Below are positions 2,929-40,160 of a DNA stretch of 64,000 nt, one piece after another. The notes under the pieces were generated by a model that had not been told where the DNA came from, made no database searches, and was given only the letters and a program-made list of their open reading frames with translations. Both the position numbers and the translations under genes were made by a program. Positions within the stretch are counted from its first letter, which is position 1; each line of letters opens with the position of its first letter. The DNA lies in the UHGV virus genome UHGV-1351982; one strand, written 5' to 3'. Source of the DNA: a virus.

Positions 2929-2937
2929 ATAATTTAT

Positions 2938-3312: not shown

Positions 3313-3317
3313 AAATT

Positions 3318-3393
3318 TGGACGACCGCATGAGATTCGAACTCACATAAGGAGGTTTTGCAGGCCTCCGCCTAAGCCATTCAGCCAACGGTCG
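3318..3393 (-). tRNA. tRNA-Cys (anticodon GCA)
   Basis: Acceptor cgaccgt/gcggtcg, anticodon stem ggagg/cctcc, loop ctgcaaa, T-arm gtgag-ttcgaat-ctcat, CCA. Confidence 0.55.
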
Positions 3394-3810: not shown

Positions 3811-3842
3811 TTTATGTAATAATTATACGGAACTTTAAGGAT

Positions 3843-4130
3843 TTAAGCAACTACATTTTTCAGAAATTTGATGCCTTTCTTTTTCTTCTTATATTTCCAC
3901 GTTAATGGATTCTGTCGATTATGAACGCTTGAGATCTTTGTCTCGTCAAAGTTCTTCAAGACCATGTAATCACATGCCAACTGCTCTAGTGGAATGGTTT
4001 CTCCATCAAAAGCATAAACATAAGGCTGTTGACTAACACGATAATGATAGACTTTGTTAATTCTACGTTTCAGCGACTTATCCGCGCAGTAAATAAAGAA
4101 GTTTTCAGGATGCATCAGCATCTCCTTCAA
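3843..4130 (-). CDS. hypothetical protein (95 aa)
   Basis: ORF. Confidence 0.5.
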   Translation of the reverse strand: MKEMLMHPENFFIYCADKSLKRRINKVYHYRVSQQPYVYAFDGETIPLEQLACDYMVLKNFDETKISSVHNRQNPLTWKYKKKKKGIKFLKNVVA

Positions 4131-4132
4131 AT

Positions 4133-4207
4133 TGGTGCAACCTGTACGTAACGATCGTACCTCTTCTCCTTTTCAGGGAGACGCTAATCCATCTCAGCTA
4201 AAGTCGC
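4133..4207 (-). tRNA. tRNA-Phe (anticodon GAA)
   Basis: Acceptor gcgactt/aggttgc, anticodon stem tctcc/ggaga, loop ctgaaaa, T-arm gtacg-atcgtta-cgtac (non-canonical loop), CCA. Confidence 0.5.
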
Positions 4208-4213
4208 AAATAT

Positions 4214-4290
4214 TGGCAAACCTACTAGGACTCGAACCTAGACCGTACGGTTTTGGAGACCGACATGCTGTCCAGTAACACTCTAGGAAT
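4214..4290 (-). tRNA. tRNA-like, apparent CCA anticodon (Trp); acceptor stem poorly paired
   Basis: T-arm ctagg-ttcgagt-cctag and anticodon loop ctccaaa present, CCA end; only 4 of 7 acceptor pairs. Confidence 0.3.
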
Positions 4291-4298
4291 GCAGAAAT

Positions 4299-4376
4299 TG
4301 GCGTCCTGTGCGGGGATCGAACCCGCAAACCCTACCTTGAAAGGGTAGTGACTTTACCAGTTTGTCTAACAGGACT
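4299..4376 (-). tRNA. tRNA-Glu (anticodon UUC)
   Basis: Perfect acceptor gtcctgt/acaggac, anticodon stem ctacc/ggtag, loop ctttcaa, T-arm gcggg-ttcgatc-cccgc, CCA. Confidence 0.65.
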
Positions 4377-4382
4377 TAAATT

Positions 4383-4473
4383 TGGTGTTGGATGATGGAG
4401 TCGAACCACCCGAGACCCTTCCGAGTCGGCAGATTTACAGTCTGCTTCGCTACCTCTACGATACTAATCCAAC
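4383..4473 (-). tRNA. tRNA-Tyr (anticodon GUA), type II
   Basis: 91 nt; acceptor gttggat/atccaac, anticodon stem gcaga/tctgc, loop ctgtaaa, long variable arm, T-arm ggtgg-ttcgact-ccatc, CCA. Confidence 0.6.
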
Positions 4474-4537
4474 ATATTTAGAAATATTCAAATACTAGTT
4501 TAAACACTTTTAAATATGTTTTCCAAATTAGATAACT

Positions 4538-4566
4538 ATTATATCAAGTTTTGAAGGACTGAGCAA
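4538..4566 (-). promoter_or_regulatory. sigma70-like early promoter for the tRNA block at 4133-4473
   Basis: Minus strand: ttgctc, 17 nt, tataat. Confidence 0.45.
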
Positions 4567-4602
4567 GTCAAATTTTAAAGAACTTGCTCAGTGCTATATC
4601 AG

Positions 4603-4878
4603 TTACTCGAAGCTAGGAGTGACACTCAGTTTGAATGGAAGCTCGAACACTTCTTCATAATCATCATTGAGCGTAATTACACGACCTTCTAGCTTAGTTA
4701 TGGTGATTTCGATATCAGCCTTTGCATCCGGAGCCATACCAGCTTCCACACATTTAGCTTTGACTTCCGGCAGAAGTTCTACATCGTAGAAATAAAGCCA
4801 TTCAATCTCACCTTCCCAGCCACCCCAGGATTTACAAACAGCACTTTCAACACCAGTTGCAGAAACACGTTTTGACAT
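4603..4878 (-). CDS. hypothetical protein (91 aa)
   Basis: ORF downstream of promoter at 4908-4938. Confidence 0.5.
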   Translation of the reverse strand: MSKRVSATGVESAVCKSWGGWEGEIEWLYFYDVELLPEVKAKCVEAGMAPDAKADIEITITKLEGRVITLNDDYEEVFELPFKLSVTPSFE

Positions 4879-4968
4879 TCGTTAACTCCTTCATCAATTT
4901 ATATAACTATTATAGCAGAAATCTTAAGTAAAAAGCAAGTACATTTTTAAAATTTCTGCTTGGAGGAG

Positions 4969-5241
4969 TTAAACTCCTGATTCTTCAGCCAGATCAAGCC
5001 CAACCAATGTGATTGCCATAATAGCCGCGCCATGTTCTTTCTCTCCTAGCTCTTTGGCTTGAGTGAGAATATTGAGGAATTGCTTTTGAAAATCTGCAAC
5101 TTCTTCTGTCATGCCTGCTTCAGCAATAATTCCTTTCAGCATAAAGCGTTGTGCCGTAATTTCAGGATTATCCATTTGTTTTCTCCAGTTGTTTAGAGTG
5201 TAAGCCAAACTTAGGCTCATAGCGATCGTAAGTCGTACCAT
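4969..5241 (-). CDS. hypothetical protein; start uncertain (internal ATG at 5175 has a GGAG RBS)
   Basis: ORF; an alternative short upstream ORF in another frame would be translationally coupled. Confidence 0.4.
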   Translation of the reverse strand: MVRLTIAMSLSLAYTLNNWRKQMDNPEITAQRFMLKGIIAEAGMTEEVADFQKQFLNILTQAKELGEKEHGAAIMAITLVGLDLAEESGV

Positions 5242-5326
5242 TAGTTGAAGCCTTGATGCTATGAAAACGACAGTACATAAATTTACGCAGTGCTTTCTTA
5301 ATAGCTTTCATTTTATTTCCTTAATT

Positions 5327-5404
5327 TGGTAGGGGTGGTGGGATTCGAACCCACAAAACCTGAATTTTAAGTCCAGTACCTATGCCAATTCGATTACACC
5401 CCCA
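5327..5404 (-). tRNA. type I tRNA with apparent UAA anticodon (Leu-like decoding of UUA)
   Basis: Acceptor gggggtg/cacccct, anticodon stem ctgga/ttcag, loop cttaaaa, T-arm gtggg-ttcgaat-cccac, CCA. Confidence 0.5.
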
Positions 5405-5495
5405 TGTAATCAGTTTATCAGTTGATACAAGTTGTAGCCCAGTGAAAATCCTACTATTAGTCCTACAAACCAACCAATATAATAATCTTTTAATT

Positions 5496-5843
5496 TCATA
5501 GTTCGTAACCTTGAATGTATCGAGCAAAGCCAGTAATTTCGAACTGGATAGCCCAGGCTACTTCCATGTGTTCAATCTTCTCAAACCGAGCGTCGGACTG
5601 CTCTAGGAAATAACGAGAGATTATAGGGAACTCAATGTCAAAGTCTTCCTTATCCATGCCATAATAGAAGTTCTCAGAGATATTACGCACTTCACAGAAG
5701 AAGTCCTCAATCTGAAAATCCATCAGAGGATAGGTATACTCCTCTTTGCTATCATCCGTTTGGAAGAAGCGGAAATGCACAAGGCAAGAGCCAATCAGGT
5801 TTACTGCTGGTGTAGTGTAGATATCCATCTTAACCTCGCTCAA
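5496..5843 (-). CDS. hypothetical protein (115 aa)
   Basis: ORF. Confidence 0.5.
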   Translation of the reverse strand: MSEVKMDIYTTPAVNLIGSCLVHFRFFQTDDSKEEYTYPLMDFQIEDFFCEVRNISENFYYGMDKEDFDIEFPIISRYFLEQSDARFEKIEHMEVAWAIQFEITGFARYIQGYEL

Positions 5844-6015
5844 TATCTAGAGAAATACCGCATTCAGGATTAATACCAGAACCATTACAATGTGTACAAA
5901 CGTATGTATTATACCATGTATCACCAGGTTCAGCATCGTTCCATTCACCTGCTCCGAAGCATTTTGGGCAGGCACACTCTTCTAGTTCCTGCTTCAATTC
6001 CTGAAACTTAGACAT
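5830..6015 (-). CDS. small Cys-rich zinc-ribbon-like protein (61 aa)
   Basis: ORF with CACPKCFGAG ... CTHCNGSG. Confidence 0.45.
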   Translation of the reverse strand: MSKFQELKQELEECACPKCFGAGEWNDAEPGDTWYNTYVCTHCNGSGINPECGISLDIERG

Positions 6016-6032
6016 ATCGTCTCCTAGTTAAT

Positions 6033-6110
6033 TGGTGGCTCCCGGAGGATTCGAACCTACCTACCTTTCGCTTATGAGGCGACGGCTCATACCAAATGAG
6101 CTTGAGAACC
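6033..6110 (-). tRNA. tRNA with CAU anticodon (second copy; Met or Ile-lysidine)
   Basis: Acceptor ggttctc/gggagcc, anticodon loop ctcataa, T-arm gtagg-ttcgaat-cctcc, CCA. Confidence 0.5.
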
Positions 6111-6115
6111 AAATT

Positions 6116-6209
6116 TGGAGGAAGATGCCAGACTCGAACTGGCACACCGTGTTTCCACAGCTACTAGCTGTTTAGCAAACAGCTCCCTTACCTTTAGGGT
6201 TAATCTTCC
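6116..6209 (-). tRNA. tRNA-Ser (anticodon GCU), type II
   Basis: 94 nt; acceptor ggaagat/atcttcc, 3-bp D-stem, anticodon stem gctgt/acagc, loop ttgctaa, long variable arm, T-arm gccag-ttcgagt-ctggc, CCA. Confidence 0.55.
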
Positions 6210-6223
6210 GAATTTATGAATAT

Positions 6224-6252
6224 ATTATACAGAAAATTTCGGCATTAAGCAA
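6224..6252 (-). promoter_or_regulatory. sigma70-like early promoter for the tRNA block at 6033-6209
   Basis: Minus strand: ttgctt, 17 nt, tataat, leader ataaattc. Confidence 0.5.
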
Positions 6253-6260
6253 GTGAAATT

Positions 6261-6557
6261 TTACTGAACATTGCACTGATATACTTGTTTGATACGTGTC
6301 ACTGACTTCTTAGTTGGGTTGATAGAAGAACCCTGCCACCAACGTGACTCTGAGCTAAGAACAGCACCAGGAACAGCTTGTTCTTTTGGCAGAACAATAT
6401 CAAAACACTGTTCACCCATATTATCTTTAATATGTGACCAAATGTCTAGAGTAAATCGTTCTAGCTTATTACAAACTTGAACTTGACAAAGTTCCTGTTG
6501 TGGAGCAGCAAATACAGAAGTAGATACTAGAGTCAATGCAAGTACAATGCGTTTCAT
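6261..6557 (-). CDS. secreted or periplasmic hypothetical protein with signal peptide (about 99 aa)
   Basis: Start MKRIVLALTLVSTSVFA after GAGAGAGG RBS; the longer ORF-track start translates the promoter leader. Confidence 0.55.
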   Translation of the reverse strand: MKRIVLALTLVSTSVFAAPQQELCQVQVCNKLERFTLDIWSHIKDNMGEQCFDIVLPKEQAVPGAVLSSESRWWQGSSINPTKKSVTRIKQVYQCNVQ

Positions 6558-6587
6558 GTTTGATTCCTCTCTCAAATTTATAAATAT

Positions 6588-6616
6588 ATTATACAGAAAT
6601 TTTCTATATTAAGCAA
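6588..6616 (-). promoter_or_regulatory. sigma70-like early promoter
   Basis: Minus strand: ttgctt, 17 nt, tataat, then leader ataaatttgagagagg. Confidence 0.5.
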
Positions 6617-6663
6617 GTGAAAATTTCTGTATAATAGCCCTCGCTTAGAGGGCTATAACTACT

Positions 6664-7341
6664 TTATTTGTTAATGCGTACAAAGTATCCTTTATAAGTT
6701 CCAATAATAGAGTTACCTAAGAATACTAGCCACATTGCTAGGATTGCGTAAGATGCACCCGTAGATTGAGCAGTTACAAGCCAAATGTACACAGTACCAA
6801 TGTTAATAGCAATCCAAATCAGCCATTGTTCAGCATATTGTTTGACCATAAGCCACATAGCAATCACACTACCAACCGCAGTAAATGCGTCAAGCATTGG
6901 GAATGGATCAGCGGTAGTAGCAAGGAAGCTGCCATATCCTAAAGTAGCTACTGCTAGAACCCCTAGAGTCAGCAAAGCTTGAGCTTTGGTCAGAATCTTA
7001 GTTGGAACATCTGGCAGATTACTTGGCTTATTTTTATGCCATAAGTACATTCCATAAAACTGCATAGGAACGTAGTATAGCAGGTTTAGTGCAGCGTTAC
7101 CATAAAGATCTGCATTTAAAGCCGTAATACCATAGGTAAGAACACCAACTAAGCCCCAAATATAGTTGGAAACACGTCCTTTTGCAACCAGAATAACACA
7201 AACCACGTTGGTTATTGCAGTAGCCCAATCTAGAGCCGTACCATTATAGTTTGCTAAACTAATAAAGGCGACTGCTATAAACAGCCACAGATATTCCAAA
7301 GGTTTCCAGTTTTTAAAATCATTTACAAGATAGTTAGTCAT
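6664..7341 (-). CDS. pnuC: nicotinamide riboside transporter PnuC family
   Basis: About 225 aa multi-pass membrane protein with PnuC-like W/Y-rich helices (YIWGLVGV, WLIWIAINIGTVYIW); GGAGAG RBS before the MTNYL start; stop of upstream gene abuts. Confidence 0.6.
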   Translation of the reverse strand: MTNYLVNDFKNWKPLEYLWLFIAVAFISLANYNGTALDWATAITNVVCVILVAKGRVSNYIWGLVGVLTYGITALNADLYGNAALNLLYYVPMQFYGMYLWHKNKPSNLPDVPTKILTKAQALLTLGVLAVATLGYGSFLATTADPFPMLDAFTAVGSVIAMWLMVKQYAEQWLIWIAINIGTVYIWLVTAQSTGASYAILAMWLVFLGNSIIGTYKGYFVRINK

Positions 7342-7342
7342 A

Positions 7343-25873: not shown

Positions 25874-26626
25874 TTACACCTTCCCCATATCCTTAAAGAT
25901 ATCGTAGAATGCTTTAGACTCTGGTGAGCGAACGTTGTCGATCAGTTCGATCATAGAGAAAGGAGAGTTTTCGTACTTCTCATAGACTTCCATAAGAAGT
26001 GCTAGACCTGAATCACCCTTGATGTCTTTCTGAGCTATATCCCCACAGATAATTAAACGACAATCTTGTCCTACACGAGTCAAGAGACAGATCATTGCTT
26101 CAACGGAGATATTCTGAGCTTCATCGACAATAACATAGGAGTTGTTGAAAGTTCGGCCACGGGCATGTTCGATGGCCAGGAATTTGATTTTCTGACGTTC
26201 GACATATCCTTTGTAGGCGTGATCACCGATTGCCCATTTCATGCCATCGGCTATTGGTTCCAACCAAGGCTCTAGCTTTTCTGCTAGATCACCTGGGAGC
26301 ATACCAAGAGATTTACCTAGAGGTTCGTTCGGACGCACGAGGATCACTTGCTCAATATCTGAGTGAATGTCTACGAGTTCCTGAGCTGCAAGAACGGACG
26401 GGATAAAGGTTTTACCAGTACCTGGTTCACCGATACCCACAGTCACTGTGTTGTTCTTGATCATATTGATATATGATTTTTGCTCACGGTTTTTACCAAC
26501 TAGGGATTTAGCAACTGGATTGGCGTAATCACCAGAGAAATCTGCTTGAATTACGTTACTCTCGTACTTGTTGCCACGCTTTCTTGAACCATTGCGGTTC
26601 TCTCTTTTTTGACGTGCTTTTCCCAT
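25874..26626 (-). CDS. phoH: PhoH-like ATPase
   Basis: Walker A GEPGTGKT; start MGKARQ after AGGAG RBS. Confidence 0.65.
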   Translation of the reverse strand: MGKARQKRENRNGSRKRGNKYESNVIQADFSGDYANPVAKSLVGKNREQKSYINMIKNNTVTVGIGEPGTGKTFIPSVLAAQELVDIHSDIEQVILVRPNEPLGKSLGMLPGDLAEKLEPWLEPIADGMKWAIGDHAYKGYVERQKIKFLAIEHARGRTFNNSYVIVDEAQNISVEAMICLLTRVGQDCRLIICGDIAQKDIKGDSGLALLMEVYEKYENSPFSMIELIDNVRSPESKAFYDIFKDMGKV

Positions 26627-26920
26627 AAATAACACTCCTATAGTGTACTTCGCTAACAGAGGATCAACAAAAAGATCTTGTTTATCAACTTACAAATATA
26701 TTATACCAATATATACGGGAGAAAGCAACTACAATTTTAAATAAGCCTATGATATTGCATTTAAATAAAAAATTTGCTTGCTTTTATTGGGAGATGTATG
26801 GTACTAGATAATCATTTTATATCGCGTACACGGGTGCGTGATTATACTATTTTTAGTAGAGGTTGGCAAATAAAATTTTTTGACTCAGATCATGTTACAG
26901 AACTTTATAGTAAAATATTG

Positions 26921-26949
26921 TTGACATCCGCCTTCGAATGAGTTATAAT
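26921..26949 (+). promoter_or_regulatory. consensus sigma70 promoter for nrdD
   Basis: ttgaca, 17 nt, tataat; a second ttgact/tatagt pair lies about 40 nt upstream. Confidence 0.6.
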
Positions 26950-26978: not shown

Positions 26979-28853
26979 ATGAATCGTAATGAAGAACTAA
27001 AGTATAAAGGAATGCAGTCCTTGATTCGAAACTGCAAAGAAATTATCGAAGGTTCAGCAGATGAAGAGCTGCTGTTTAATAATGCCAATAAGCCCTCAGA
27101 ACGTTTCCCTACACAAAGGGATATGCTTGCAGGGGAATTGAGTAAATATCTGATTCTGGAAGAAATGCCAATCCAGATTCGAAATGCTCACATGATTGGT
27201 GATATTCACTTCCATGATGCTGATTACGCTGCGTTAGGTATGACTAACTGTTGCCTGGTTGCTTTGGAAGATATGTTGAAGAATGGCATGAAGGTTGGTA
27301 ATGCTGAAATCAGTACGCCAAACTCCATTACTACTGCGGCTGCTATTACGGCTCAGATTATTACTCAGGTTAGCTCACATCAATATGGTGGTACTTCTGT
27401 AGACCGATTAGATGAAGTATTAGCTCCTTATGTTCGTAAGTCTTATGATAAGAATCATGCGTTTGCAAAACGTTGGACTAAGGATGAAGCTAAAGCATCT
27501 GTAATGGCTACGGAAATGACTGAGAAAGAAGTTTACGATGCCTGCCAGGGTCTAGAATACGAAATCAATACGATGTTCAACTCTAATGGTCAGAGTCCAT
27601 TTATTACCTTTGGTTTTGGTCTAGGAACTTCTTGGGAAGCACGTCTTGTACAGAAAGCAATACTAGAAGTACGTATGGATGGTTTGGGTATCAATAAACG
27701 TACAGCTATTTTCCCTAAACTGGTATTTGTTCTGCGTGACGGCGTAAACATGAAACCTGGCGATGTTAACTACGATATCAAGAAGTTAGCTATGAAATGT
27801 ACTGCTGAACGTATGTACCCTGACTATATCAGTTATGATAAGGTTGTAGAAGTTACTGGAGATTATAAAGTCTCTATGGGTTGTCGTTCATTCCTGGCTG
27901 CTGCGGAAGATGGAGAAACTTCTGGTCGAAACAACTTAGGCGTTGTTTCTGTGAACCTTCCTCGAATCGCTATCGAAGCGGAAGGAAATATTGATCTATT
28001 CTTCGATCTGCTTGAGCTGCGTGTTGATACCGCGTTAAAAGCGTTGGAATGGAGGGTTGATCGCTTAAAATACATTCAAGCTAAAGCCGCGCCCATCCTC
28101 TATATGTCAGGAGCCTTTGGATTACGTCTGGGGCCAGATGAATATGTATTTGATCATTTCTACAAGCGTGCTTCTGTATCTCTAGGATATATTGGCTGCC
28201 ACGAAATGTTACAGTTCATGTTTGGTAAAGATGTAGATACAATGTCTGAGTCTTGTATCAAGTTCGTTCAACGTGTGCTACAATACATGCGTGATCGTGC
28301 TGATCAGAAGAAGGAAGAGACTCAATTAGGGTATAGTCTATATGCTACACCATCTGAATCTCTATGTGATCGCTTCTGTCGCCTAGACCGTGAGTATTTC
28401 CCAGAGCATGAAGATATTCTGACTAAAGGATATTACACTAATTCCCACCACCTTGATGTAGAACGTAAGGTTGCTCCAAACGTGAAGTTTGATTATGAGT
28501 CTAACTTTACCCCAATTGCTTCAGGTGGGTGCATTTCCTACGTGGAATTGCCGGATATGAAACGATTCCCAGATGCACTGGAATGGGTTATTAACTATGC
28601 CGCAAGTAAAGTTCATTACTTCGGTATTAATACTCCAGTAGACTCTTGTGGGGAATGTGGATTCTTGGGTGAGACTATAGCTTCTGAGGATGGTTTCAAA
28701 TGCCCTATCTGTGGCAACCATGATCCTGAGACTCTTGAGGTAACTCGTCGAGTTTGTGGATATCTCGGAAATCCGGGTGCTCGTCCATTTAATCCAGGCA
28801 AACAGCATGAGGTTATGGGTCGAGTGAAACATCAGGACATTCGCGCTAAATAA
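26979..28853 (+). CDS. nrdD: anaerobic ribonucleoside-triphosphate reductase
   Basis: 624 aa; C-terminal zinc ribbon (CGECG ... CPICG) and glycyl-radical motif RVCGYLG; GAAGGAGGG RBS. Confidence 0.7.
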   Translation: MNRNEELKYKGMQSLIRNCKEIIEGSADEELLFNNANKPSERFPTQRDMLAGELSKYLILEEMPIQIRNAHMIGDIHFHDADYAALGMTNCCLVALEDMLKNGMKVGNAEISTPNSITTAAAITAQIITQVSSHQYGGTSVDRLDEVLAPYVRKSYDKNHAFAKRWTKDEAKASVMATEMTEKEVYDACQGLEYEINTMFNSNGQSPFITFGFGLGTSWEARLVQKAILEVRMDGLGINKRTAIFPKLVFVLRDGVNMKPGDVNYDIKKLAMKCTAERMYPDYISYDKVVEVTGDYKVSMGCRSFLAAAEDGETSGRNNLGVVSVNLPRIAIEAEGNIDLFFDLLELRVDTALKALEWRVDRLKYIQAKAAPILYMSGAFGLRLGPDEYVFDHFYKRASVSLGYIGCHEMLQFMFGKDVDTMSESCIKFVQRVLQYMRDRADQKKEETQLGYSLYATPSESLCDRFCRLDREYFPEHEDILTKGYYTNSHHLDVERKVAPNVKFDYESNFTPIASGGCISYVELPDMKRFPDALEWVINYAASKVHYFGINTPVDSCGECGFLGETIASEDGFKCPICGNHDPETLEVTRRVCGYLGNPGARPFNPGKQHEVMGRVKHQDIRAK

Positions 28854-28860
28854 TGAATCA

Positions 28861-28895
28861 GCCAGGTTGCTAGTCGACCTGGCTTTTATTTTATT
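28861..28895 (+). terminator. rho-independent terminator after nrdD
   Basis: Hairpin gccaggt ... acctggc followed by a T-run. Confidence 0.55.
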
Positions 28896-28951: not shown

Positions 28952-29191
28952 ATGAGCGAATTGCTTCCGAAAGTAGATGTTTCCCATCTTGGAGAGCCTA
29001 GTGAAGAACGTAAGGCTCTCGATTGGTTAGGTTACTTTGATGAACGTGTTGTATTACGTTCTGTCATGAAAGGTAAGGCCAAACATTTTAGAATCCGCTA
29101 TATTCGTAAGGATTTTGGCCATGTAACAATTGACTATATTGAAAAAGCTGGTAGTATTTCTACAGAAACAATTTACAAGGTTAAACAATGA
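28952..29191 (+). CDS. hypothetical protein (79 aa)
   Basis: ORF after GAGAGGAG RBS. Confidence 0.5.
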   Translation: MSELLPKVDVSHLGEPSEERKALDWLGYFDERVVLRSVMKGKAKHFRIRYIRKDFGHVTIDYIEKAGSISTETIYKVKQ

Positions 29192-29391
29192 AAAACGTAA
29201 AACATCTTAAATATCGCTTAATTTACAACGGACGTATGGAAACAGAAGATCTAGCTCAGCTAGCGATCAATTCAGATGAAGTTACAGTTCGTGCTTTGTC
29301 CATCGAGAAGCTGCGTGCTTCTTACGAAAATCGTATTATGGAATTAGAGGATAAACTTTATGGCATTCTCGAGTCAGAAGCTACCAAGTGA
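29188..29391 (+). CDS. hypothetical protein (67 aa)
   Basis: ORF; ATGA overlap with the upstream gene. Confidence 0.45.
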   Translation: MKNVKHLKYRLIYNGRMETEDLAQLAINSDEVTVRALSIEKLRASYENRIMELEDKLYGILESEATK

Positions 29392-29597
29392 AACTGTTAG
29401 TCTTATTAGCCTGAGTAAACTCAACGAAGAGTTTCAGGGAGTCTTAATGAAGCACTGGGAAACTGGGTATAAAGATGGTGTTGAATCCTGTGCTACTATG
29501 CTAGAAGTTCTTGCTGATAACCTAGTAGAGAAAGGCAATAAAGAATTAGCTGAGCTGTTAGAAGGTATTGGACAAAACTTCAGAGAACAGGTGAAAA

Positions 29598-30428
29598 ATG
29601 CGTAGACTAATTGTTGTTAGTGGTGCAGGTTTGAGCGTAGATAGTGGTGTTTGTGCATTCCGTACAGATACTGCTAGTGGTAAAGCCATGTGGGATGAGT
29701 ACGATCTAGAGGAAGTATGTAACATTAGTGCTTTCCAACGTGGGTATCGTTGCTACACTGGTGAGTTTGGCGTATGGGGTACTGATGAAGATGGTAAGGA
29801 CTTCTACACCAAGACTCATGAGTTCTACAATATGCGTCGTCAAGAACTTGAGAATGTAGAACCTAACATTGCCCATTTGCGTACTGCGGAATGGTTTCAA
29901 CGCTACGGTGCTGATTCTGTAAAGAACTTTACAACTAACGTTGATGACTTGCTCGAACGTGCTGGTATTCCTCGTGAGGAAATCTTACACGTGCACGGCT
30001 ACCTGAAAGAGATTATTTATCGTCGTGATCGTGATATGGTTATTGATGATATTGGGTATAGTGCTGTTGATATTAGTCAGTTTGAGTGGGTAAAGCCAAA
30101 CGTGGTGTTCTTTGGTGAGACAGCTCCGTGGTACATGGGCCAAATCAATCTGTTTGATACTCTTACTAGCAATGACATGGTTATTGTGGTGGGTTGTAGC
30201 AACCAAGTGATCAACTTCAACTGGGAATTATTCCCTGCTGTATGTCGTGGTACTAAGATGATGGTTGTTAACCCTCAAGTTCGCTATGACGAGCAGCTTG
30301 AGTACGAGAAACGTGGTGTTACTGTATGGCGTGCTGGAGCTGCCGAAGTTTTTGGTAACAAGCACTTCATTGGTCAAGTTGAAGCTTTTATGGAAGGAGC
30401 TATTTATGTCCCCGAAAAGACATCCTGA
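29598..30428 (+). CDS. SIR2-family (NAD-dependent deacylase-like) protein
   Basis: VVSGAGLSVDSGVCAFR Rossmann motif, catalytic-His region LHVHGY, VVFFGE and VIVVGCS blocks; no clear zinc-binding CxxC pairs. Confidence 0.55.
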   Translation: MRRLIVVSGAGLSVDSGVCAFRTDTASGKAMWDEYDLEEVCNISAFQRGYRCYTGEFGVWGTDEDGKDFYTKTHEFYNMRRQELENVEPNIAHLRTAEWFQRYGADSVKNFTTNVDDLLERAGIPREEILHVHGYLKEIIYRRDRDMVIDDIGYSAVDISQFEWVKPNVVFFGETAPWYMGQINLFDTLTSNDMVIVVGCSNQVINFNWELFPAVCRGTKMMVVNPQVRYDEQLEYEKRGVTVWRAGAAEVFGNKHFIGQVEAFMEGAIYVPEKTS

Positions 30429-30560
30429 TGATATAATTGTATGGCCAGATAAAACATGGTGCTATCGTGAAGAGTTGTGGGAAATGGATTATATGTCAGA
30501 TGATTTCTGTGTAATCTATATCGACACACCGGAACATAAAGCGTTCCTAGAGGAGAACGA

Positions 30561-30746
30561 ATGATAAAGAAGATTTTTAAGGGTATTTGGAAAGGTCTAG
30601 TATGGTTTGTCAACCTAATCGGTATGATTACCATTTATTCTCTGTTCATATCTGTTATGTGGGGTAAAGGTGAGCTGAAGGTTCCGGTTCCTTTTACTGA
30701 TGAAGTTAAAGTCTGGACATGGGATGCTACTGGTGGAAATAAGTAA
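30561..30746 (+). CDS. small membrane protein (61 aa)
   Basis: Hydrophobic helix WFVNLIGMITIYSLFISVMW. Confidence 0.4.
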   Translation: MIKKIFKGIWKGLVWFVNLIGMITIYSLFISVMWGKGELKVPVPFTDEVKVWTWDATGGNK

Positions 30747-31239
30747 TACTCCTGTGATTTTCCTGGATATTGATGGGGTGCTCAATTCGAGCATCTCTCA
30801 CCATCATGCTCCAGATAGTGAAAAGCTATTCTTTGGTGGTGATTGGGTTTATAAGCCATTACTCCAGGCTTTTCAGAACTTCCTTAAACCTTCTTCAATA
30901 ATGATTGTTGGGGTATCTTCATGGTTTTCTGTACGAAATGAAATGGAGAACGTTCAGATTATGACCGGACTCGGTTTGATCGATCGTTTTCTTGGTACAA
31001 CAGATTTTACTGGAGGTGGTTTATCTCGGGGTAATTCTGTTTTACGTTTTGTCGAAAAATATAAGCTCAAGCATTGGTGTGTCCTAGATGATGCTGGTGC
31101 TATGATGTATCAATTTCCTACTGTTATTGTAAACGGCAGGACTGGAATAAACCTTCAAGATTTAAACGCTATCAGCTATATGCTGGAGTTTAGTCCAGAT
31201 CTTGAAATGTGTAAGGCTCTTCAGAAACTCAAGGTGTAA
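30724..31239 (+). CDS. HAD-superfamily phosphatase (deoxyribonucleotidase-like); start uncertain
   Basis: FLDIDGVLN motif I near the N-terminus. Confidence 0.5.
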   Translation: MLLVEISNTPVIFLDIDGVLNSSISHHHAPDSEKLFFGGDWVYKPLLQAFQNFLKPSSIMIVGVSSWFSVRNEMENVQIMTGLGLIDRFLGTTDFTGGGLSRGNSVLRFVEKYKLKHWCVLDDAGAMMYQFPTVIVNGRTGINLQDLNAISYMLEFSPDLEMCKALQKLKV

Positions 31240-31241: not shown

Positions 31242-31670
31242 ATGTTCGATAATCTTTTCATGAAAGAGGTAAACCCTATGCTTCTCAACTTCTGGCGTTC
31301 TCTCCCTAATGGTATGTACAATGAAACCATCAATCTCCTTAAGATTTGGTGTGAGAATAACGATATCTTCCTGTCTTTTAAAGGCCCGCTAGAGGAAGCT
31401 CCGTGTATTGGAGTTAGTGTGGATTTAGGTGAGGGAGTAGAAGAGATTGTGGACTGGAAAGAACTCGATGAAATGGGTCTGGTTTTTGCCTTGAACCATA
31501 AGCTGTTTATGCCTGCAAATCACCGTCTTATTGTAAATTATCGTACTGGTGAAGCTCCTGCTTTCCAGGTAAATGAACGTGAGGGCTGGTCATATTCGCC
31601 CGAGGAAGTAAATGAGGGGATTCAGAAACTTCGTCGTTTCGGGTATATGATCCCAGGTTTAACTGCTTAA
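31242..31670 (+). CDS. hypothetical protein, paralog 1 (142 aa)
   Basis: AAGGTG RBS; shares WxELxxMGLxxALN ... TGExP ... PGL with the next gene. Confidence 0.5.
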   Translation: MFDNLFMKEVNPMLLNFWRSLPNGMYNETINLLKIWCENNDIFLSFKGPLEEAPCIGVSVDLGEGVEEIVDWKELDEMGLVFALNHKLFMPANHRLIVNYRTGEAPAFQVNEREGWSYSPEEVNEGIQKLRRFGYMIPGLTA

Positions 31671-31679
31671 GGAGGCAGA

Positions 31680-32075
31680 ATGGAACAAGTATTTTGGCGT
31701 CAGATAGATCCTAGTTTGGTAGAGCGTGCTGAGGGGCTCCTTGCACGTTGGTTGGGGGTTGACAAGGTTAGTGTAACATTTCCGTTTACTTCTGTAACAG
31801 ACCCTAGTGTAGGTGTCTTTGTGGACGAAGATGAAGATGATGGTTGGGAAGCTGACTGGAATGAATTGTCCAGCATGGGCTTGATTGTTGCCCTCAACTT
31901 CTCTATATTCCATCCATGTGGCTTAGCCATTACACGTGACCCCGAAACTGGTGAATCCCCTTATCTTTTGCAAGTAGAAGATGATATTTGGGAGTACACC
32001 GAAGATATTCTCGAAGAAGCTAAAGGTCAATTAAATCGCATTGGGATCTATGTTCCAGGCCTAAATGATGATTGA
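31680..32075 (+). CDS. hypothetical protein, paralog 2 (131 aa)
   Basis: TAAGGAGG RBS; similar to 31242-31670. Confidence 0.5.
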   Translation: MEQVFWRQIDPSLVERAEGLLARWLGVDKVSVTFPFTSVTDPSVGVFVDEDEDDGWEADWNELSSMGLIVALNFSIFHPCGLAITRDPETGESPYLLQVEDDIWEYTEDILEEAKGQLNRIGIYVPGLNDD

Positions 32076-32691
32076 TTTTCATTAGCCCAATCCTGATTAC
32101 CGAGTCATTTTGGCTCGGTTTTCTCTGTGCTCAAAGACACTGATAGCACCTTCGGAAAAATTTTACTTGCAGGATGCTCAAAATCTTGATATAATATTTA
32201 TATTGAATTGAGAGACATTAGTAAAAATTGATTTTGCTAATTTTTCTTGTTTACAATCCGCAATACGGAACAGTTAGGCTGCCCCATTAAGGGTTGTTTT
32301 AACTATTACTAGTGTTTATACTGCATTAGTTAATTATCAATTAAGTGATCTGCGTACCCTGAATTCGGAAAGGTAAATCCAAACCGTGCATATTTAGCTC
32401 GTTATATAGGCAGAGCTTTATATGGGGGTGCGAACGAAAAGAGCAGCGAATGGTGACACGTCCAGTAGCCACCTACCAATAGGATAGTGAGGGCAATCAG
32501 AATCGGCTTAGCGGCCAATGACCTAGGTTCTGATCTGGATAAGAGTTAAGAGAGCGCAGCACTGAGGTATGATAACTTATTCATACTGCTTGATGATGAT
32601 TAATGTTTGTGTAAATGGTAGTAATAGTTGTTCTATTCTTTTGAATAGTCCTAAAGAAAGATATCCGAATAACCAACATAGGAGTATTGTT

Positions 32692-38013: not shown

Positions 38014-38214
38014 ATGGCAATGACAATAACACTTCCAAAGATTCAAGCAAAACTTAATTTGCTCTCCATAGCAAGAATCAATTATCAGGATAGTATCGGC
38101 ACTCCAAACCAGAAAGCGTACAAAGATGCGTGGTTGAAAGAGGCTGCTGATTTAGCTGGTATGGCTGCTCAGTATAATAAAGAACTCAAAATGGAAATTG
38201 CAGACGATGAATAA
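38014..38214 (+). CDS. hypothetical protein (about 66 aa)
   Basis: ATG after GAGAGGA RBS. Confidence 0.45.
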   Translation: MAMTITLPKIQAKLNLLSIARINYQDSIGTPNQKAYKDAWLKEAADLAGMAAQYNKELKMEIADDE

Positions 38215-39178
38215 TGTAAAAGACTTTATCAAACGTTGTCAAGAAGCGTACTACCAGGGAATGAGTCTTATTTCCGATGAAGAATATGATCGTCTGATTA
38301 AAAGATTCCCGTTAGAGGAAGAAATCGGGCCGAAAGGTGATATCCCTCATTTGTATCGTATGTATTCTTTACAGAAAGTCTATTACGATCGTGGTGATAA
38401 AGCTCCATTTAACCCATTAGGTCAGGTTGAAACTGATAAGTTAGATGGTTGTGCGATTTCTCTATTATATATTAATGGTGAATTTGTTCAAGCGTTAACT
38501 CGTGGTAACGGTATTCTAGGGAATGATGTAACGCATAACGTTAAGATGCTGAACATTCCTAAAACTATTTCCCAAAGAGTACCAACTCAAATCACTGGTG
38601 AAGTTCTCATTACTAAAGAAGTAGAGAACAAACGTAACTACGCTTCGGGTGCTATTAACCTGAAAGATAGTGATGATTTCATACAACGTATTGGTGAAGG
38701 TGGTTTAATCTTCGTTGCATATGGTATCCAGTGTTCAGCGGAAACAGTCGGTATTACAGAAGCCTATTTAAAAGATATGCTTTGGCTAGAGAATGAGAAC
38801 TTCTTGACAGTTGTTAATGTTCGTTCCTTTTTTAAATGGATTCCGACGGACGGTAAAGTTGTTCGTATTAACGACAACAATAAATTCTTCCGTGAAGGTT
38901 GGACTAATAAATTTCCTCGTGGTGCATTTGCTATTAAAGAGGATGAAGAAGGCGAAATTACCACACTTGTTAAAGTTGAATGGCAAGTAGGGGCTTCTGG
39001 TAAAGTAACTCCAGTTGGTTATTTCGAGCCGGTGATTATTGATGATGCCACAATTGTTAAAGCAACTCTTAATAACGTTGATTATATTAACGCTCTCGAT
39101 TTAGAGATCGGTTGCCAGATTCGAGTGATTCGTGCTGGTGGTGTAATCCCTTGTATAGTAGAGCGAGTATACGACTAA
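38198..39178 (+). CDS. NAD-dependent DNA ligase, N-terminal (adenylation) subunit
   Basis: KxDG adenylation motif (TDKLDGCA) with LigA-like flanking sequence. Confidence 0.6.
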   Translation: MQTMNNVKDFIKRCQEAYYQGMSLISDEEYDRLIKRFPLEEEIGPKGDIPHLYRMYSLQKVYYDRGDKAPFNPLGQVETDKLDGCAISLLYINGEFVQALTRGNGILGNDVTHNVKMLNIPKTISQRVPTQITGEVLITKEVENKRNYASGAINLKDSDDFIQRIGEGGLIFVAYGIQCSAETVGITEAYLKDMLWLENENFLTVVNVRSFFKWIPTDGKVVRINDNNKFFREGWTNKFPRGAFAIKEDEEGEITTLVKVEWQVGASGKVTPVGYFEPVIIDDATIVKATLNNVDYINALDLEIGCQIRVIRAGGVIPCIVERVYD

Positions 39179-39380: not shown

Positions 39381-40160
39381 ATGAAAATCGAAATTCCAAC
39401 ACAATGTCCCTCTTGTGGTTCTAAGCTAGATCTTGTCAACGGGCAATTATTCTGTAGGAATAAGTCCAACTGTCCAGCGCAATCAAGTAAGTTAATCGAG
39501 AACTTCTGCACAAAAATGAAGTTAAAGGGCTTTGGCCCGAAAACTATTGAGAAGCTGGAGCTGACTAAGATCTCAGAACTGTTTTACCTGACCGAAGAAG
39601 ATTTGGTCGGAGCTGTGGGTAGCAAGGTTGCCGCTAAATTGATTAGCGAGTTAAATACTAAGGTTCGCGGAGACATTGACTTTGGTTCAGTTCTCGGTTC
39701 TTTAGGAATTCCTCTTATTGGAGAGGTTGCAGCAAAGAAACTGTCCCAAAATTGCACTAGCTTCCACGATGTGAAGGCTGACGGCAAGGCTGGAGAAAAT
39801 TACAAAACCTGGCTAAATTCCCCACAAGGCAAGGATGTTATTGAATTACCGTGGAAATTCTCAACAGGTATTCGAGGTGCTAAAGCGGATATCATCATTA
39901 CAGATGATTTAGTTGCCCAGCCAAATGGAATCACGGTCTGTATTACCGGATCTTTGCAAGATTTTGCAAATCGAACGGATGCAACAAACTATTTAGAAAG
40001 TCTAGGATATACGGTTAAGAAGTCCGTTACCAAAGACGTCAAATACCTAATCTGTGAGGATGAATCAAAACGTTCTTCCTCATCTTATAAGAAAGCCGAA
40101 ACGAATGGGATAGAAATCCTGTCGATTAAAGAACTATTGGAGAAAAATAATAATGTCTAA
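39381..40160 (+). CDS. NAD-dependent DNA ligase, C-terminal subunit (zinc finger, helix-hairpin-helix, BRCT-like)
   Basis: CPSCGSKL ... CRNKSNCPAQ Cys4 zinc finger followed by GFGPKTIEKL helix-hairpin-helix-like repeats. Confidence 0.55.
   Translation: MKIEIPTQCPSCGSKLDLVNGQLFCRNKSNCPAQSSKLIENFCTKMKLKGFGPKTIEKLELTKISELFYLTEEDLVGAVGSKVAAKLISELNTKVRGDIDFGSVLGSLGIPLIGEVAAKKLSQNCTSFHDVKADGKAGENYKTWLNSPQGKDVIELPWKFSTGIRGAKADIIITDDLVAQPNGITVCITGSLQDFANRTDATNYLESLGYTVKKSVTKDVKYLICEDESKRSSSSYKKAETNGIEILSIKELLEKNNNV

What the first reader, a model, noticed from the sequence alone, without database searches (positions are those of the whole stretch)
29598..30428. SIR2-family protein in a genome that also carries NAD salvage genes
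The Rossmann GAGxSxxSG motif and catalytic His region are present but no zinc-binding Cys pairs are evident. SIR2 domains consume NAD, and in bacteria often act as defence effectors. A phage copy alongside a PnuC/NadR-like module suggests deliberate manipulation of host NAD pools or protein acylation.
Basis: partly seen in the sequence, partly recalled or inferred. Interest (0 to 1): 0.55.

Follow-up and report, generated by a model that had tools for sequence, protein, structure and literature searches.

The report
Zinc-less phage sirtuin paired with phosphatase
This T5-like phage gene is a real sirtuin with an apparently intact active site. It belongs to an already described phage-specific sirtuin group that travels with a small phosphatase, and nobody has yet tested what it does.

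Summary
ORF 29598-30428 (+) encodes a 276-aa SIR2 protein (Pfam PF02146, 69.9 bits against a cut-off of 24). All sirtuin catalytic motifs are present and there is no zinc-binding Cys4 site.

The window comes from a T5-like phage (Demerecviridae). The gene is annotated "Sir2-like" in many phage records, and 978 of 50,697 records encode a homologue.

By sequence and predicted fold it is a canonical class III sirtuin (CobB/Sir2Af1/SIRT5-like), not a defence-type SIR2 NADase. Close relatives keep four Cys, so zinc was lost secondarily.

The PnuC/NadR genes 21 kb away are NARP3, a published counter-defence NAD+ rebuilding pathway. They are not specifically tied to SIR2.

The tied partner is a HAD_SAK_2 phosphatase 270 bp downstream. 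The pair survives gene-order inversion and was deleted together in phage DT57C. In other phage lineages the same sirtuin clade sits beside RNA ligase, polynucleotide kinase, cREC, 2H and Nudix genes.

The best reading was already proposed by Iyer et al. 2022: an NAD+-dependent, KptA/Tpt1-like removal of RNA 2'-phosphate. Protein desuccinylation remains a strong rival. Neither has been tested experimentally.

The family is already known, and interest is modest.

The parts
29598..30428 (+). Zinc-less class III-type sirtuin (SIR2), 276 aa. The N-terminal two thirds belong to a divergent allele and the C-terminal third to the common allele.
30184..30184 (.). Approximate recombination junction inside the SIR2 gene, near codon 196. 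Nucleotide identity to phage atrejo is 32-83% upstream (28967-30183) and 95-100% downstream.
30700..31239 (+). HAD_SAK_2 phosphatase, 179 aa. Most homologues start near the second Met at 30724. Motifs FLDIDGVLN, GVSSW, R110-G111 and VLDD are invariant or nearly so. This is the conserved partner of SIR2.
30406..30564 (+). Small ORF (52 aa) that overlaps the SIR2 stop. Function unknown.
30561..30746 (+). Small hydrophobic ORF (61 aa) between SIR2 and HAD. It is present in only some T5-like relatives.
28952..29605 (+). Three small overlapping ORFs (79, 67 and 81 aa; PHROGs 7953, 5236 and 5827; function unknown) directly upstream of SIR2. The last one is translationally coupled to SIR2.
31242..32075 (+). 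Two tandem DUF7415 paralogues (31242-31670 and 31680-32075), very acidic. They share the block with SIR2 and HAD but are not part of the conserved pair: L070 and L072 lack them, and DT57C keeps them.
26921..26949 (+). Perfect sigma-70 consensus promoter (12/12) upstream of nrdD. It is the likely source of transcripts entering the block.
28860..28884 (+). Terminator-like hairpin after nrdD. It marks the upstream edge of the SIR2-HAD block.
32099..32119 (+). Terminator-like hairpin after the second DUF7415 gene. It marks the downstream edge of the block.
6664..8449 (-). PnuC (6664-7356) plus NadR-like NMNAT/RNK (7343-8449), which together form the NARP3 NAD+ reconstitution pathway. This is the 'NAD salvage module' named in the finding. 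It is a separate unit and not part of the SIR2 module.
   Evidence: PMC13464706

Best explanation
The gene encodes a sirtuin with an apparently intact active site. It belongs to a phage-specific, secondarily zinc-less offshoot of class III (CobB/SIRT5-like) sirtuins.

Proposed mechanism:
- It binds NAD+, expels nicotinamide and transfers ADP-ribose onto an oxyanion of its substrate.
- The catalytic His then promotes attack by the ribose 2''-OH.
- The substrate most likely is a 2'-phosphate (or similar phosphate) on damaged RNA such as tRNA, as in the KptA/Tpt1 reaction.
- That reaction would free the RNA 2'-OH and release ADP-ribose 1'',2''-cyclic phosphate.
- The co-transcribed capless HAD_SAK_2 phosphatase (cREC, 2H or calcineurin-like esterases in other phages) would then clear the remaining RNA-end phosphate or the phosphorylated ADP-ribose by-product.

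The pair would be a dispensable accessory module that heals RNA cut by host nucleases.

Shown here: fold, motif conservation, clade placement, and gene linkage.
Inferred: NAD+ cleavage.
Hypothesis only, first made by Iyer et al. 2022: an RNA phosphate as acceptor.
For: Catalytic residues and placement:
- All catalytic residues are invariant in 20 homologues.
- The AF2 model (pLDDT 86.7) matches Sir2Af1 and CobB best.

Linkage to phosphate- and RNA-end-processing genes in independent lineages:
- In about 35 T5-like loci HAD_SAK_2 lies 0.8-1.3 kb downstream of SIR2.
- In L070 and L072 the order is inverted (HAD, small ORF, SIR2) and DUF7415 is absent.
- In L059, whose SIR2 is only 41% identical, a HAD_SAK_2 gene lies 3 kb downstream.
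- In rV5- and Mydo-like phages the cluster is RNA ligase, cREC, polynucleotide kinase in some, and SIR2, with a phosphoesterase nearby.
- In jumbo phages the order is 2H, SIR2, one ORF, Nudix, cREC, with NAMPT upstream.

Other support:
- DT57C lost SIR2 and HAD in one deletion, leaving a fused remnant, and the phage is viable.
- No Macro-domain gene was seen next to SIR2 in the loci examined.
- 2H, cREC and HAD enzymes have an obvious role in processing ADP-ribose cyclic phosphate or 1''-phosphate. They have none in deacylation (inference from the established Tpt1/Cpd1/Poa1 pathway).
- The window carries 18 tRNA genes.
- The same proposal, covering the T5-like phage SP15, is published in PMC9503650 section 3.7.3. 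SP15 carries the homologous HAD gene (H122).
Against: - There is no biochemical evidence for any member of the clade.
- The acyl-lysine pocket residues of CobB/SIRT5 are conserved: CobB A76, Y92, R95, I131 and V187 correspond to C41, Y77, R80, V115 and V169. That is what a desuccinylase would keep.
- No new conserved basic patch is evident relative to CobB.
- T5-like phages show no RNA ligase or polynucleotide kinase in this window, so ligation would have to be done by the host.
- Several lineages lack RNA-repair neighbours: L012-type, KVP40-like, L009, L010 and L016.
- The HAD_SAK_2 and cREC names are themselves predictions from the same research group.
- The HAD model resembles capless HAD phosphatases only weakly: MDP-1 at E = 5e-3 and T4 Pnkp at E = 0.1.
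- KptA-encoding phages did not show matching neighbourhoods.
Confidence: 0.4

Rival explanations
1. It is a conventional NAD+-dependent protein lysine deacylase. Like CobB and SIRT5 it would prefer acidic acyl groups (succinyl, malonyl, glutaryl) or acetyl. The phage would use it to reset acylation of host or phage proteins during infection, for example to reactivate acyl-CoA synthetases or other enzymes, as Skliros et al. 2016 proposed for KVP40-like phages.
For: - The class III Y-x-x-R signature (Y77, R80) and the small residue at the CobB A76 position (C41) are invariant. FGE and the catalytic His, Asn and Asp are intact.
- Every experimentally characterised class III sirtuin known to me is a deacylase (established knowledge).
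- The idea is published in PMC5107563.
Against: - It does not explain the recurrent linkage to HAD, cREC, 2H, RNA ligase and polynucleotide kinase genes.
- The zinc module, which forms half of the peptide-binding cleft, is remodelled, with a clade-specific D-[IV]-G-Y motif.
- The CobB 'VYP' substrate loop is replaced by 'VIN' and is modelled with low confidence.
- Scores against NCBIfam CobB equivalog models are far below cut-off: 73-88 bits against 243-320.
- The host already has CobB.
Confidence: 0.3
2. It is an anti-defence enzyme acting on small nucleotides rather than on RNA or protein. Using NAD+, or working in reverse by base exchange, it would modify, destroy or recycle NAD+-derived or cyclic-phosphate-bearing immune signalling or by-product nucleotides. 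It would work together with the neighbouring phosphoesterases and NAD+ salvage enzymes.
For: - In jumbo phages the gene directly upstream is an Acb1-family (anti-CBASS) 2H phosphodiesterase. Downstream lie a Nudix and a cREC gene, and NAMPT is nearby.
- NAMPT and PRPP-synthetase genes flank the sirtuin in Mydo and L071.
- The same genome carries NARP3.
- The SIR2 gene is a recombination and divergence hot spot within otherwise conserved flanks, a pattern common for conflict genes.
Against: - No precedent exists for a sirtuin acting on free nucleotides other than NAD+ itself.
- The acyl-pocket residues are conserved.
- The RNA ligase and kinase linkage in rV5-like phages points to polymeric RNA.
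- The idea is purely contextual.
Confidence: 0.12
3. It is a plain NADase, or a protein mono-ADP-ribosyltransferase, that the phage uses to lower host NAD+ or to inactivate host proteins.
For: - SIR2 domains can hydrolyse NAD+.
- The catalytic Asn and His required by ThsA-type NADases are present.
- The phage has its own NAD+ supply route.
Against: - It is structurally and by profile unlike defence NADase SIR2s.
- The SirTM hallmarks (catalytic His replaced by Gln, a Macro-domain partner) are absent.
- The phage needs NAD+ for its own NAD-dependent DNA ligase.
- The phage also carries a pathway whose published role is to restore NAD+ (PMC13464706), so depleting NAD+ would work against itself.
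Confidence: 0.06

Closest known systems
Phage 'RNA-repair' sirtuin clade, neighbourhood type 3 (Escherichia phage SP15 type), described computationally by Iyer, Burroughs, Anantharaman and Aravind 2022 (PMC9503650, section 3.7.3)
   Same: - Same gene family, and the same pairing with a 'Swiss-army-knife' HAD phosphatase in T5-like phages.
- SP15 carries a HAD gene 88.7% identical to the window's.
- No Macro-domain partner.
- Related alleles sit beside RNA ligase and cREC (rV5, Mydo) or 2H, Nudix and cREC (jumbo phages), as that paper states and as confirmed here.
   Different: - Nothing essential differs.
- This window carries a mosaic allele, only 53% identical in protein to the T5-type allele (T5 and the other T5-type loci). 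Its first two thirds were exchanged.
- The proposed activity has never been tested.
E. coli CobB, Sir2Af1 and SIRT5 (class III sirtuins, lysine deacetylase/desuccinylase)
   Same: - About 25% sequence identity.
- All NAD+-binding and catalytic motifs are shared.
- The Y-x-x-R acidic-acyl signature and a small residue at the CobB A76 position are shared.
   Different: - No Cys4 zinc site.
- A clade-specific D-[IV]-G-Y hairpin.
- TQNID becomes TTNVDD.
- The VYP loop becomes VIN.
- A 4-residue insert in the cofactor loop and a variable 0-26-residue insert before the YxxR helix.
- Scores are far below the CobB equivalog cut-offs.
- The genomic partners are phosphoesterases, not acetyltransferase or acyl-CoA synthetase genes.
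KptA/Tpt1 RNA 2'-phosphotransferase
   Same: This is a proposed functional analogy only. Both use NAD+, release nicotinamide and use a two-step ADP-ribosyl transfer chemistry with the ribose 2''-OH as second nucleophile. Both are linked to RNA-end healing genes in phages.
   Different: - The fold is unrelated and there is no sequence homology.
- KptA homologues occur in 98 phage records, mostly jumbo phages.
- The three KptA contexts inspected share no neighbours with the SIR2 loci.
Defence-associated SIR2 NADases (ThsA, DSR1/2, SIR2-HerA, SPARSA, KomC, Avs5)
   Same: The SIR2 Rossmann core and the catalytic Asn and His.
   Different: - No PADLOC hit.
- SIR2_2 is below threshold.
- No sensor domain or partner.
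- It is phage-encoded, in an early-gene block.
NARP3 (PnuC plus NadR-like, phage TrudiRoth Bas30_87/86; Yan et al. 2026, PMC13464706)
   Same: It is present in the same genome. The window region is 95.5% identical in nucleotide sequence to TrudiRoth, and the NadR and PnuC models score above their cut-offs. Both concern NAD+.
   Different: - A separate locus (6664-8449, minus strand) with a separate published function: rebuilding NAD+ against NAD+-depleting defences.
- Found in only about half of the T5-type phages that carry SIR2 and HAD.
- SIR2 is not a component.

Membership tests
Sirtuin / SIR2 superfamily (Pfam PF02146) | Profile match above the curated threshold | tested here: met
   69.9 bits against a gathering score of 24, E = 3.4e-19. 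PHROG 2162, E = 2e-105.
Sirtuin / SIR2 superfamily (Pfam PF02146) | NAD+-binding and catalytic motifs: GAGxS, (T/Q)N(I/V)D, catalytic HG, FGE, G(T/C)S, N | tested here: met
   All are present and invariant in 20 homologues.
Sirtuin / SIR2 superfamily (Pfam PF02146) | Rossmann domain plus small-domain fold | tested here: met
   [not shown]
Sirtuin / SIR2 superfamily (Pfam PF02146) | NAD+-dependent catalysis | not testable with these tools
   Needs an enzyme assay.
Class III sirtuins (CobB / SIRT5 type deacylases) | Y-x-x-R acidic-acyl signature and a small residue at the SIRT5 A86 / CobB A76 position | tested here: met
   Y77, R80 and C41 are invariant and align with CobB Y92, R95 and A76.
Class III sirtuins (CobB / SIRT5 type deacylases) | Cys4 zinc-binding ribbon between the catalytic His and the FGE strand | tested here: not met
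   There is no Cys in residues 134-165. Sister sequences carry four Cys.
Class III sirtuins (CobB / SIRT5 type deacylases) | Scores above the NCBIfam CobB deacylase model cut-offs | tested here: not met
   87.8 bits against 243, 73.4 against 320 and 69.7 against 318.
Class III sirtuins (CobB / SIRT5 type deacylases) | Lysine deacylase activity | not testable with these tools
   Needs peptide assays.
Defence-associated SIR2 NADase effectors | Match to SIR2_2 or PADLOC defence SIR2 profiles | tested here: not met
   SIR2_2 scores 13.3 bits against 24.5. PADLOC gives no hit.
Defence-associated SIR2 NADase effectors | A fused or adjacent sensor or partner (SLOG, HerA, pAgo, STAND, TIR) | tested here: not met
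   It is a single-domain protein. Its neighbours are small ORFs, HAD_SAK_2 and DUF7415.
SirTM-type ADP-ribosylating sirtuins | Catalytic His replaced, and an operonic Macro-domain partner | tested here: not met
   [not shown]
Phage RNA-repair-associated sirtuin clade (Iyer et al. 2022), type 3 | A sirtuin of the phage clade adjacent to a SAK-type HAD phosphatase, with no Macro partner | tested here: met
   HAD_SAK_2 (PF18143, E = 5.5e-18) starts 272 nt after the SIR2 stop. The pairing is kept in about 35 T5-like loci and in inverted order in L070 and L072. The SP15 locus is homologous.
Phage RNA-repair-associated sirtuin clade (Iyer et al. 2022), type 3 | RNA 2'-phosphate removal using NAD+ | not testable with these tools
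   This is a prediction only. The held literature contains no assay.
KptA/Tpt1 2'-phosphotransferases | Homology to the KptA/Tpt1 fold or family | tested here: not met
   The only Pfam hits are SIR2 and SIR2_2, and the fold is Rossmann-type sirtuin. Any resemblance is functional analogy, not membership.
NARP3 (the PnuC plus NadR module named in the finding) | A PnuC-type nicotinamide riboside transporter next to a NadR-like NMNAT/RNK enzyme that lacks the HTH domain | tested here: met
   TIGR01528 scores 120 bits against 42.45. PRK08099 scores 260 bits against 201, matching profile positions 54-407 of 411, so the N-terminal HTH part is missing. The region is syntenic with and 95.5% identical to TrudiRoth Bas30_86/87. 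SIR2 is not part of this system.

The most novel reading that the evidence does not exclude
The phage sirtuin does not act on proteins. Together with its HAD partner it would be an NAD+-fuelled module that strips phosphate from nucleic acid or nucleotide substrates. It would then be the first sirtuin shown to act on RNA, a convergent analogue of Tpt1/KptA that repairs tRNA cut by host defences. Alternatively it might act on phosphate-bearing immune signalling nucleotides. The class III Tyr/Arg 'acidic acyl' pocket would have been re-used to hold a phosphate.
Probability: 0.4. Interest if true: 0.7.

Novelty: already known. Interest (0 to 1): 0.33.

Why it matters
About 2% of sequenced phage genomes (978 of 50,697 records) carry this sirtuin clade, including T5-like, rV5-like, KVP40-like and jumbo phages, yet no member has been assayed.

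If it removes RNA phosphates using NAD+, it would extend sirtuin chemistry beyond proteins. It would also add an RNA-healing route to the phage counter-defence repertoire, fuelled by the NAD+ that pathways such as NARP2 and NARP3 rebuild.

If it is simply a desuccinylase, it would show that phages reset host protein acylation.

Either result is reachable with simple assays. The gene, its lack of zinc, its link to NAD+ salvage and the RNA-repair idea are all already published, so this window adds supporting detail rather than a discovery.

Tried and rejected
1. Defence-type SIR2 effector. Rejected on profiles, on structure ranking and on the absence of any partner.

2. SirTM-like ADP-ribosyltransferase. 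Rejected because the catalytic His is kept and there is no Macro-domain neighbour.

3. Isoelectric point as a discriminator of RNA binding. Dropped because SIR2 has pI 4.85 and CobB itself has pI 5.4.

4. Non-homologous displacement test, asking whether KptA-encoding phages place KptA in the same neighbourhoods as SIR2. KptA occurs in 98 records. The three contexts examined (L067-L069) share no neighbours with SIR2 loci by tblastn or Pfam. The test is inconclusive.

5. Extra domains in longer cellular relatives (P0141, P0195, P0227, P0267 and others). Only WG-repeat and LRR domains were found, which say nothing about function.

6. Predicted structure of the HAD partner, to decide between a protein and an RNA substrate. 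The model is good (pLDDT 92) but gives only weak matches to capless HAD phosphatases: MDP-1, T4 Pnkp and Scp1. Not decisive.

7. The DUF7277/DUF7275 protein found upstream of SIR2 in about-150-kb phages and in a KVP40-like phage. It has no solved relative and no functional annotation.

8. Literature search for any biochemical characterisation of a phage sirtuin. None was found.

9. Residue-level mapping on the AF2 model (electrostatics, cleft geometry). This could not be done because model coordinates are not exposed to the scripting tool.
Full report
**What is there**

The window comes from a T5-like phage (Demerecviridae, Epseptimavirus-like). Its first 25 kb match Salmonella and Escherichia T5-like phages at 94-97% nucleotide identity.

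ORF 29598-30428 on the plus strand encodes 276 aa. An AGGTGA ribosome-binding site precedes it, and its start overlaps the stop of the upstream small ORF. It matches Pfam SIR2 at 69.9 bits against a cut-off of 24, and PHROG 2162 'Sir2' at E = 2e-105.

The translation shows these motifs:
- GAGLSVDSG, then F21-R22
- TTNVDD (N114, D116)
- HVHG (H133)
- KPNVVFFGE
- GCS
- VVN (N225)

All of these positions are invariant in an alignment with 19 phage homologues of 54-82% identity. The five cysteines are at 19, 41, 52, 200 and 216. None lies between the catalytic His and the FGE strand, so there is no Cys4 zinc site.

**How common and how well known**

- By nucleotide search, 200 phage records share the gene.
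- By protein search, 978 of 50,697 phage records encode a homologue. They include T5-like, rV5- and Mydo-like, roughly 150-kb, KVP40-like and jumbo phages.
- It is routinely annotated 'Sir2-like protein' or 'NAD-dependent deacetylase'. The Mydo record cites T5.102.
- Skliros et al. 2016 already noted that phage Sir2/CobB proteins lack the zinc ligands, listed T5 among the carriers, and linked them to phage NAD+ synthesis genes (PMC5107563).
- Iyer et al. 2022 defined 'a distinct clade' of phage sirtuins and predicted a KptA-like role in RNA repair. [quoted passage not shown]
- I found no biochemical study of any phage sirtuin in the held literature.

**What kind of sirtuin**

Sequence:
- A profile of the phage family finds E. 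coli CobB as the best solved relative (E = 7.5e-24), followed by Sir2Af1/Af2 and SIRT5.
- Scores against NCBIfam CobB models are far below their cut-offs, for example 88 against 243 bits. It is therefore not a CobB orthologue.

Structure:
- An AlphaFold2 model has mean pLDDT 86.7 and pTM 0.84.
- Foldseek matches CobB at E = 1e-15, with TM 0.82 on the target.
- The defence SIR2s PsSIR2, KomC, SIR2-HerA, ThsA and Avs5 score only 8.7-13.3.
- PADLOC has no hit, and Pfam SIR2_2 is below threshold.

Residues aligned with CobB:
- The class III acidic-acyl signature is kept: CobB Y92 and R95 correspond to Y77 and R80.
- The pocket residue A76 corresponds to the clade-invariant C41.
- I131 and V187 correspond to V115 and V169.

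Clade-specific differences from CobB:
- TQNID is TTNVDD.
- The VYP loop after GTS is VIN, and this loop is the low-confidence part of the model.
- The cofactor loop has a 4-residue insert.
- A variable 0-26-residue insert precedes the YxxR helix.

**Zinc loss is secondary**

A full HMMER scan of 1.84 billion representative proteins found 96 with E < 1e-30 and 1214 with E < 1e-10.

- Among the best 150, the top-scoring group has no Cys in the segment between HG and the FGE strand. It does keep a D-[IV]-G-Y motif there.
- The next group carries the same I-G-Y motif inside a classical C-x2-C ... C-x2-C ribbon.
- A neighbour-joining tree rooted on CobB places the Cys-less phage sequences as sister to the four-Cys group.
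- The model still predicts the two-strand hairpin at 134-151.

**Surroundings and transcription**

The layout is as follows (for regulatory sites):
- A perfect sigma-70 consensus promoter (26921-26949) precedes nrdD (26979-28853).
- Terminator-like hairpins at 28860-28884 and 32099-32119 bracket a tightly packed plus-strand block.
- The block holds three small ORFs, SIR2, two small ORFs, a 179-aa gene at 30700-31239, and two DUF7415 paralogues.

The 179-aa protein is HAD_SAK_2 (PF18143, E = 5.5e-18). All four HAD motifs are invariant or nearly so in 26 homologues. Its model (pLDDT 92) resembles capless HAD phosphatases only weakly: MDP-1 at E = 5e-3 and T4 Pnkp at E = 0.1.

**Is the HAD linkage meaningful?**

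Within T5-like phages simple synteny proves little, so I looked for independent arrangements.
- In about 35 T5-like loci HAD lies 0.8-1.3 kb downstream of SIR2.
- In two metagenomic T5-like contigs (L070, L072) the order is inverted to HAD, small ORF, SIR2. DUF7415 is absent there, and in L070 nrdD is absent too.
- In L059, whose SIR2 is only 41% identical, a HAD_SAK_2 gene lies 3 kb downstream.
- In phage DT57C the CDS labelled 'sir2 (defective)' is a fusion. It joins a SIR2 remnant (residues about 190-243) to a HAD remnant (residues 143-179). Both genes were removed by one deletion, the DUF7415 genes remain, and the phage is viable.
- Counter-examples exist. L009, L010 and L016 keep SIR2 without a detectable HAD.

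**Other lineages**

- rV5-like phages have RNA ligase, cREC_REC (PF20274) and SIR2 in a row, with polynucleotide kinase and a phosphoesterase transcribed divergently.
- Mydo-like phages have phosphoesterase, RNA ligase, cREC, kinase, one ORF, SIR2 and DNA ligase, with NAMPT and PRPP synthetase about 5 kb upstream.
- The jumbo phages SE_PL and pEa_SNUABM_49 have NAMPT further upstream, then a 2H enzyme (best Pfam hit Acb1), SIR2, one ORF, a Nudt16-like Nudix and cREC.
- The roughly 150-kb L012-type phages and a KVP40-like phage instead have a DUF7277/DUF7275 protein upstream and no obvious RNA genes.

The recurring theme is phosphate-ester-processing enzymes and, in one large group, genuine RNA ligase and kinase genes.

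**Mechanism**

Sirtuin chemistry and Tpt1/KptA chemistry are formally parallel. This paragraph rests on established knowledge and inference. In both, an oxygen nucleophile of the substrate attacks C1'' of NAD+ and expels nicotinamide. The ribose 2''-OH then attacks the activated carbon or phosphorus. For a 2'-phosphate substrate the by-product is ADP-ribose 1'',2''-cyclic phosphate. In yeast a 2H cyclic phosphodiesterase and then a phosphatase clear that by-product. 2H, cREC, HAD and Nudix neighbours have a natural role in such a pathway and none in deacylation.

This is why I rank the Iyer et al. proposal first, at 0.40. The weight on the other side is real:
- The acyl pocket is conserved exactly as in desuccinylases.
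- There is no new basic surface motif relative to CobB.
- T5-like phages have no RNA ligase or kinase of their own in this window.
- Some lineages lack the RNA context altogether.

I therefore give conventional lysine deacylation 0.30. A small-nucleotide anti-defence role gets 0.12; it is prompted by the Acb1-family, Nudix and NAMPT neighbours and by the hot-spot behaviour of the gene. Plain NADase or protein ADP-ribosylation gets 0.06.

**The NAD+ salvage link**

- PnuC (6664-7356) and the NadR-like NMNAT/RNK (7343-8449) pass the NCBIfam cut-offs.
- They correspond to Bas30_87/86 of phage TrudiRoth, whose region is 95.5% identical.
- Yan et al. 2026 showed that this pair, NARP3, imports nicotinamide riboside and rebuilds NAD+ to defeat Sir2-HerA (PMC13464706).
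- It lies 21 kb from SIR2 on the opposite strand.
- NadR at 90% identity or more is found in about 207 phage records, whereas the HAD partner at 80% or more is in about 437. At least half of the T5-type phages with the HAD partner of SIR2 therefore lack NARP3.
- The phage also encodes a split NAD-dependent DNA ligase (38207-39175 and 39381-40157), another NAD+ consumer.

The specific pairing is not supported.

**Allele mosaicism**

- Against phage atrejo, nucleotide identity is 93-100% in the flanks, falls to 32-83% from 28967 to 30183, and returns to 95-100% from 30184 onward. That is a junction near codon 196 of SIR2.
- Against T5-type relatives, SIR2 is 52-53% identical in protein. In T5 itself NrdD is 89%, HAD 90% and the origin-binding protein 94% identical; across T5-type loci these mostly range 86-98%.
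- In the tree, T5-like alleles are interleaved with rV5-like, Mydo-like and 150-kb-phage alleles.
- The sirtuin has therefore been exchanged between phage families independently of its HAD partner. That argues against an obligate co-evolving complex. It fits an accessory, conflict-exposed gene.

**Verdict**

The feature is real and correctly described. It belongs to an already annotated and already discussed phage sirtuin clade, and the function of that clade remains untested. This analysis adds four points:
- The zinc loss is secondary.
- The SIRT5-like pocket triad is invariant.
- The SIR2-HAD pair persists through inversion and co-deletion.
- The gene is a recombination hot spot.

Noticed in passing
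window 7930-9305 (copies at 7930-8585 and 8650-9305): A perfect 656-nt direct duplication at an offset of 720 nt. It creates a truncated second copy of the nadR NMNAT domain (ORF 8534-9169, residues 1-173 100% identical to NadR 7343-8449). TrudiRoth and Klebsiella phage 150049 have no such duplication. It is either a very recent tandem duplication or an assembly artefact.
   Followed up: partly
window 8531-8585, 8596-8650, 9251-9305: A 55-nt element present three times and identical in each copy. It contains a C/G-rich hairpin and a TTGACA box. It sits at the edges of the duplicated segment and may have mediated the duplication.
   Followed up: no
window 30700-31239; PHROG 18062; RefSeq records such as atrejo gp071: The HAD_SAK_2 gene is widely mis-annotated as 'Sir2 (NAD-dependent deacetylase)'. 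PHROG 18062, labelled Sir2, actually matches the C-terminal half of the HAD protein. A likely source, by inference only, is labels carried by fusion remnants such as the DT57C 'sir2 (defective)' CDS.
   Followed up: yes
L061 (phage DT57C) 4468-4740; also Shigella phage SHSML-45 (H125): The DT57C 'sir2 (defective)' CDS is a fusion of SIR2 residues about 190-243 with HAD residues 143-179. This natural deletion removes both genes in a viable phage. SHSML-45 shows a truncated HAD (residues 75-179) under a CDS labelled Sir2, which I did not examine further.
   Followed up: partly
window 28967-30183 against 30184 onward: A mosaic boundary lies inside the SIR2 gene. The upstream small ORFs and the first two thirds of SIR2 belong to a divergent allele (32-83% nucleotide identity to atrejo), whereas the rest of the block is 95-100% identical.
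   Followed up: yes
window 31242-31670 and 31680-32075: Two tandem DUF7415 paralogues, very acidic (pI 4.67 and 4.05), of unknown function. They are conserved in most T5-like phages and retained in DT57C, but absent from L070 and L072. They could be nucleic-acid mimics or inhibitors.
   Followed up: no
L063 3510-3956 and L064 3281-3727 (jumbo phages SE_PL and pEa_SNUABM_49): The gene immediately upstream of the jumbo-phage sirtuin is a 2H phosphoesterase whose best Pfam match is the anti-CBASS nuclease family Acb1 (about 60 bits against a cut-off of 27). A Nudt16-like Nudix and a cREC gene lie downstream, and NAMPT lies upstream.
   Followed up: partly
L012 4981-5910, L004 3099-3860, L047 4461-5387: A DUF7277 plus DUF7275 protein (PHROG 2141) lies 2-3 kb upstream of the sirtuin in the L012-type 150-kb phage and in a KVP40-like phage. 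The L047 ORF looks alike by sequence but was not scanned. The N-terminus reads G-S...D-x-D, which recalls a nucleotidyltransferase, but I did not test that. No solved relative exists.
   Followed up: partly
window 75-12393, minus strand: Eighteen tRNA genes, including two tRNA-Lys, two tRNA-Met and two tRNA-Arg, are interspersed with small ORFs and the NARP3 genes.
   Followed up: no
window 26841-26949: Back-to-back near-perfect sigma-70 promoters (12/12 on the plus strand, 11/12 on the minus strand) lie between the divergently transcribed PhoH-like gene (25874-26635, by synteny with atrejo) and nrdD.
   Followed up: no
window 38207-39175 and 39381-40157: An NAD-dependent DNA ligase encoded as two separate genes (A and B subunits), 99% identical to the atrejo proteins. 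It is a second NAD+-consuming enzyme in the same early region.
   Followed up: partly
window 9375-10815, plus strand: Two plus-strand ORFs (333 and 138 aa) with no Pfam hit sit in a stretch of higher G+C (0.46) between nadR and the SPFH gene. They are present in 396 T5-like records but absent from TrudiRoth. One record labels part of the region a 'cAMP-dependent protein kinase catalytic subunit'.
   Followed up: no
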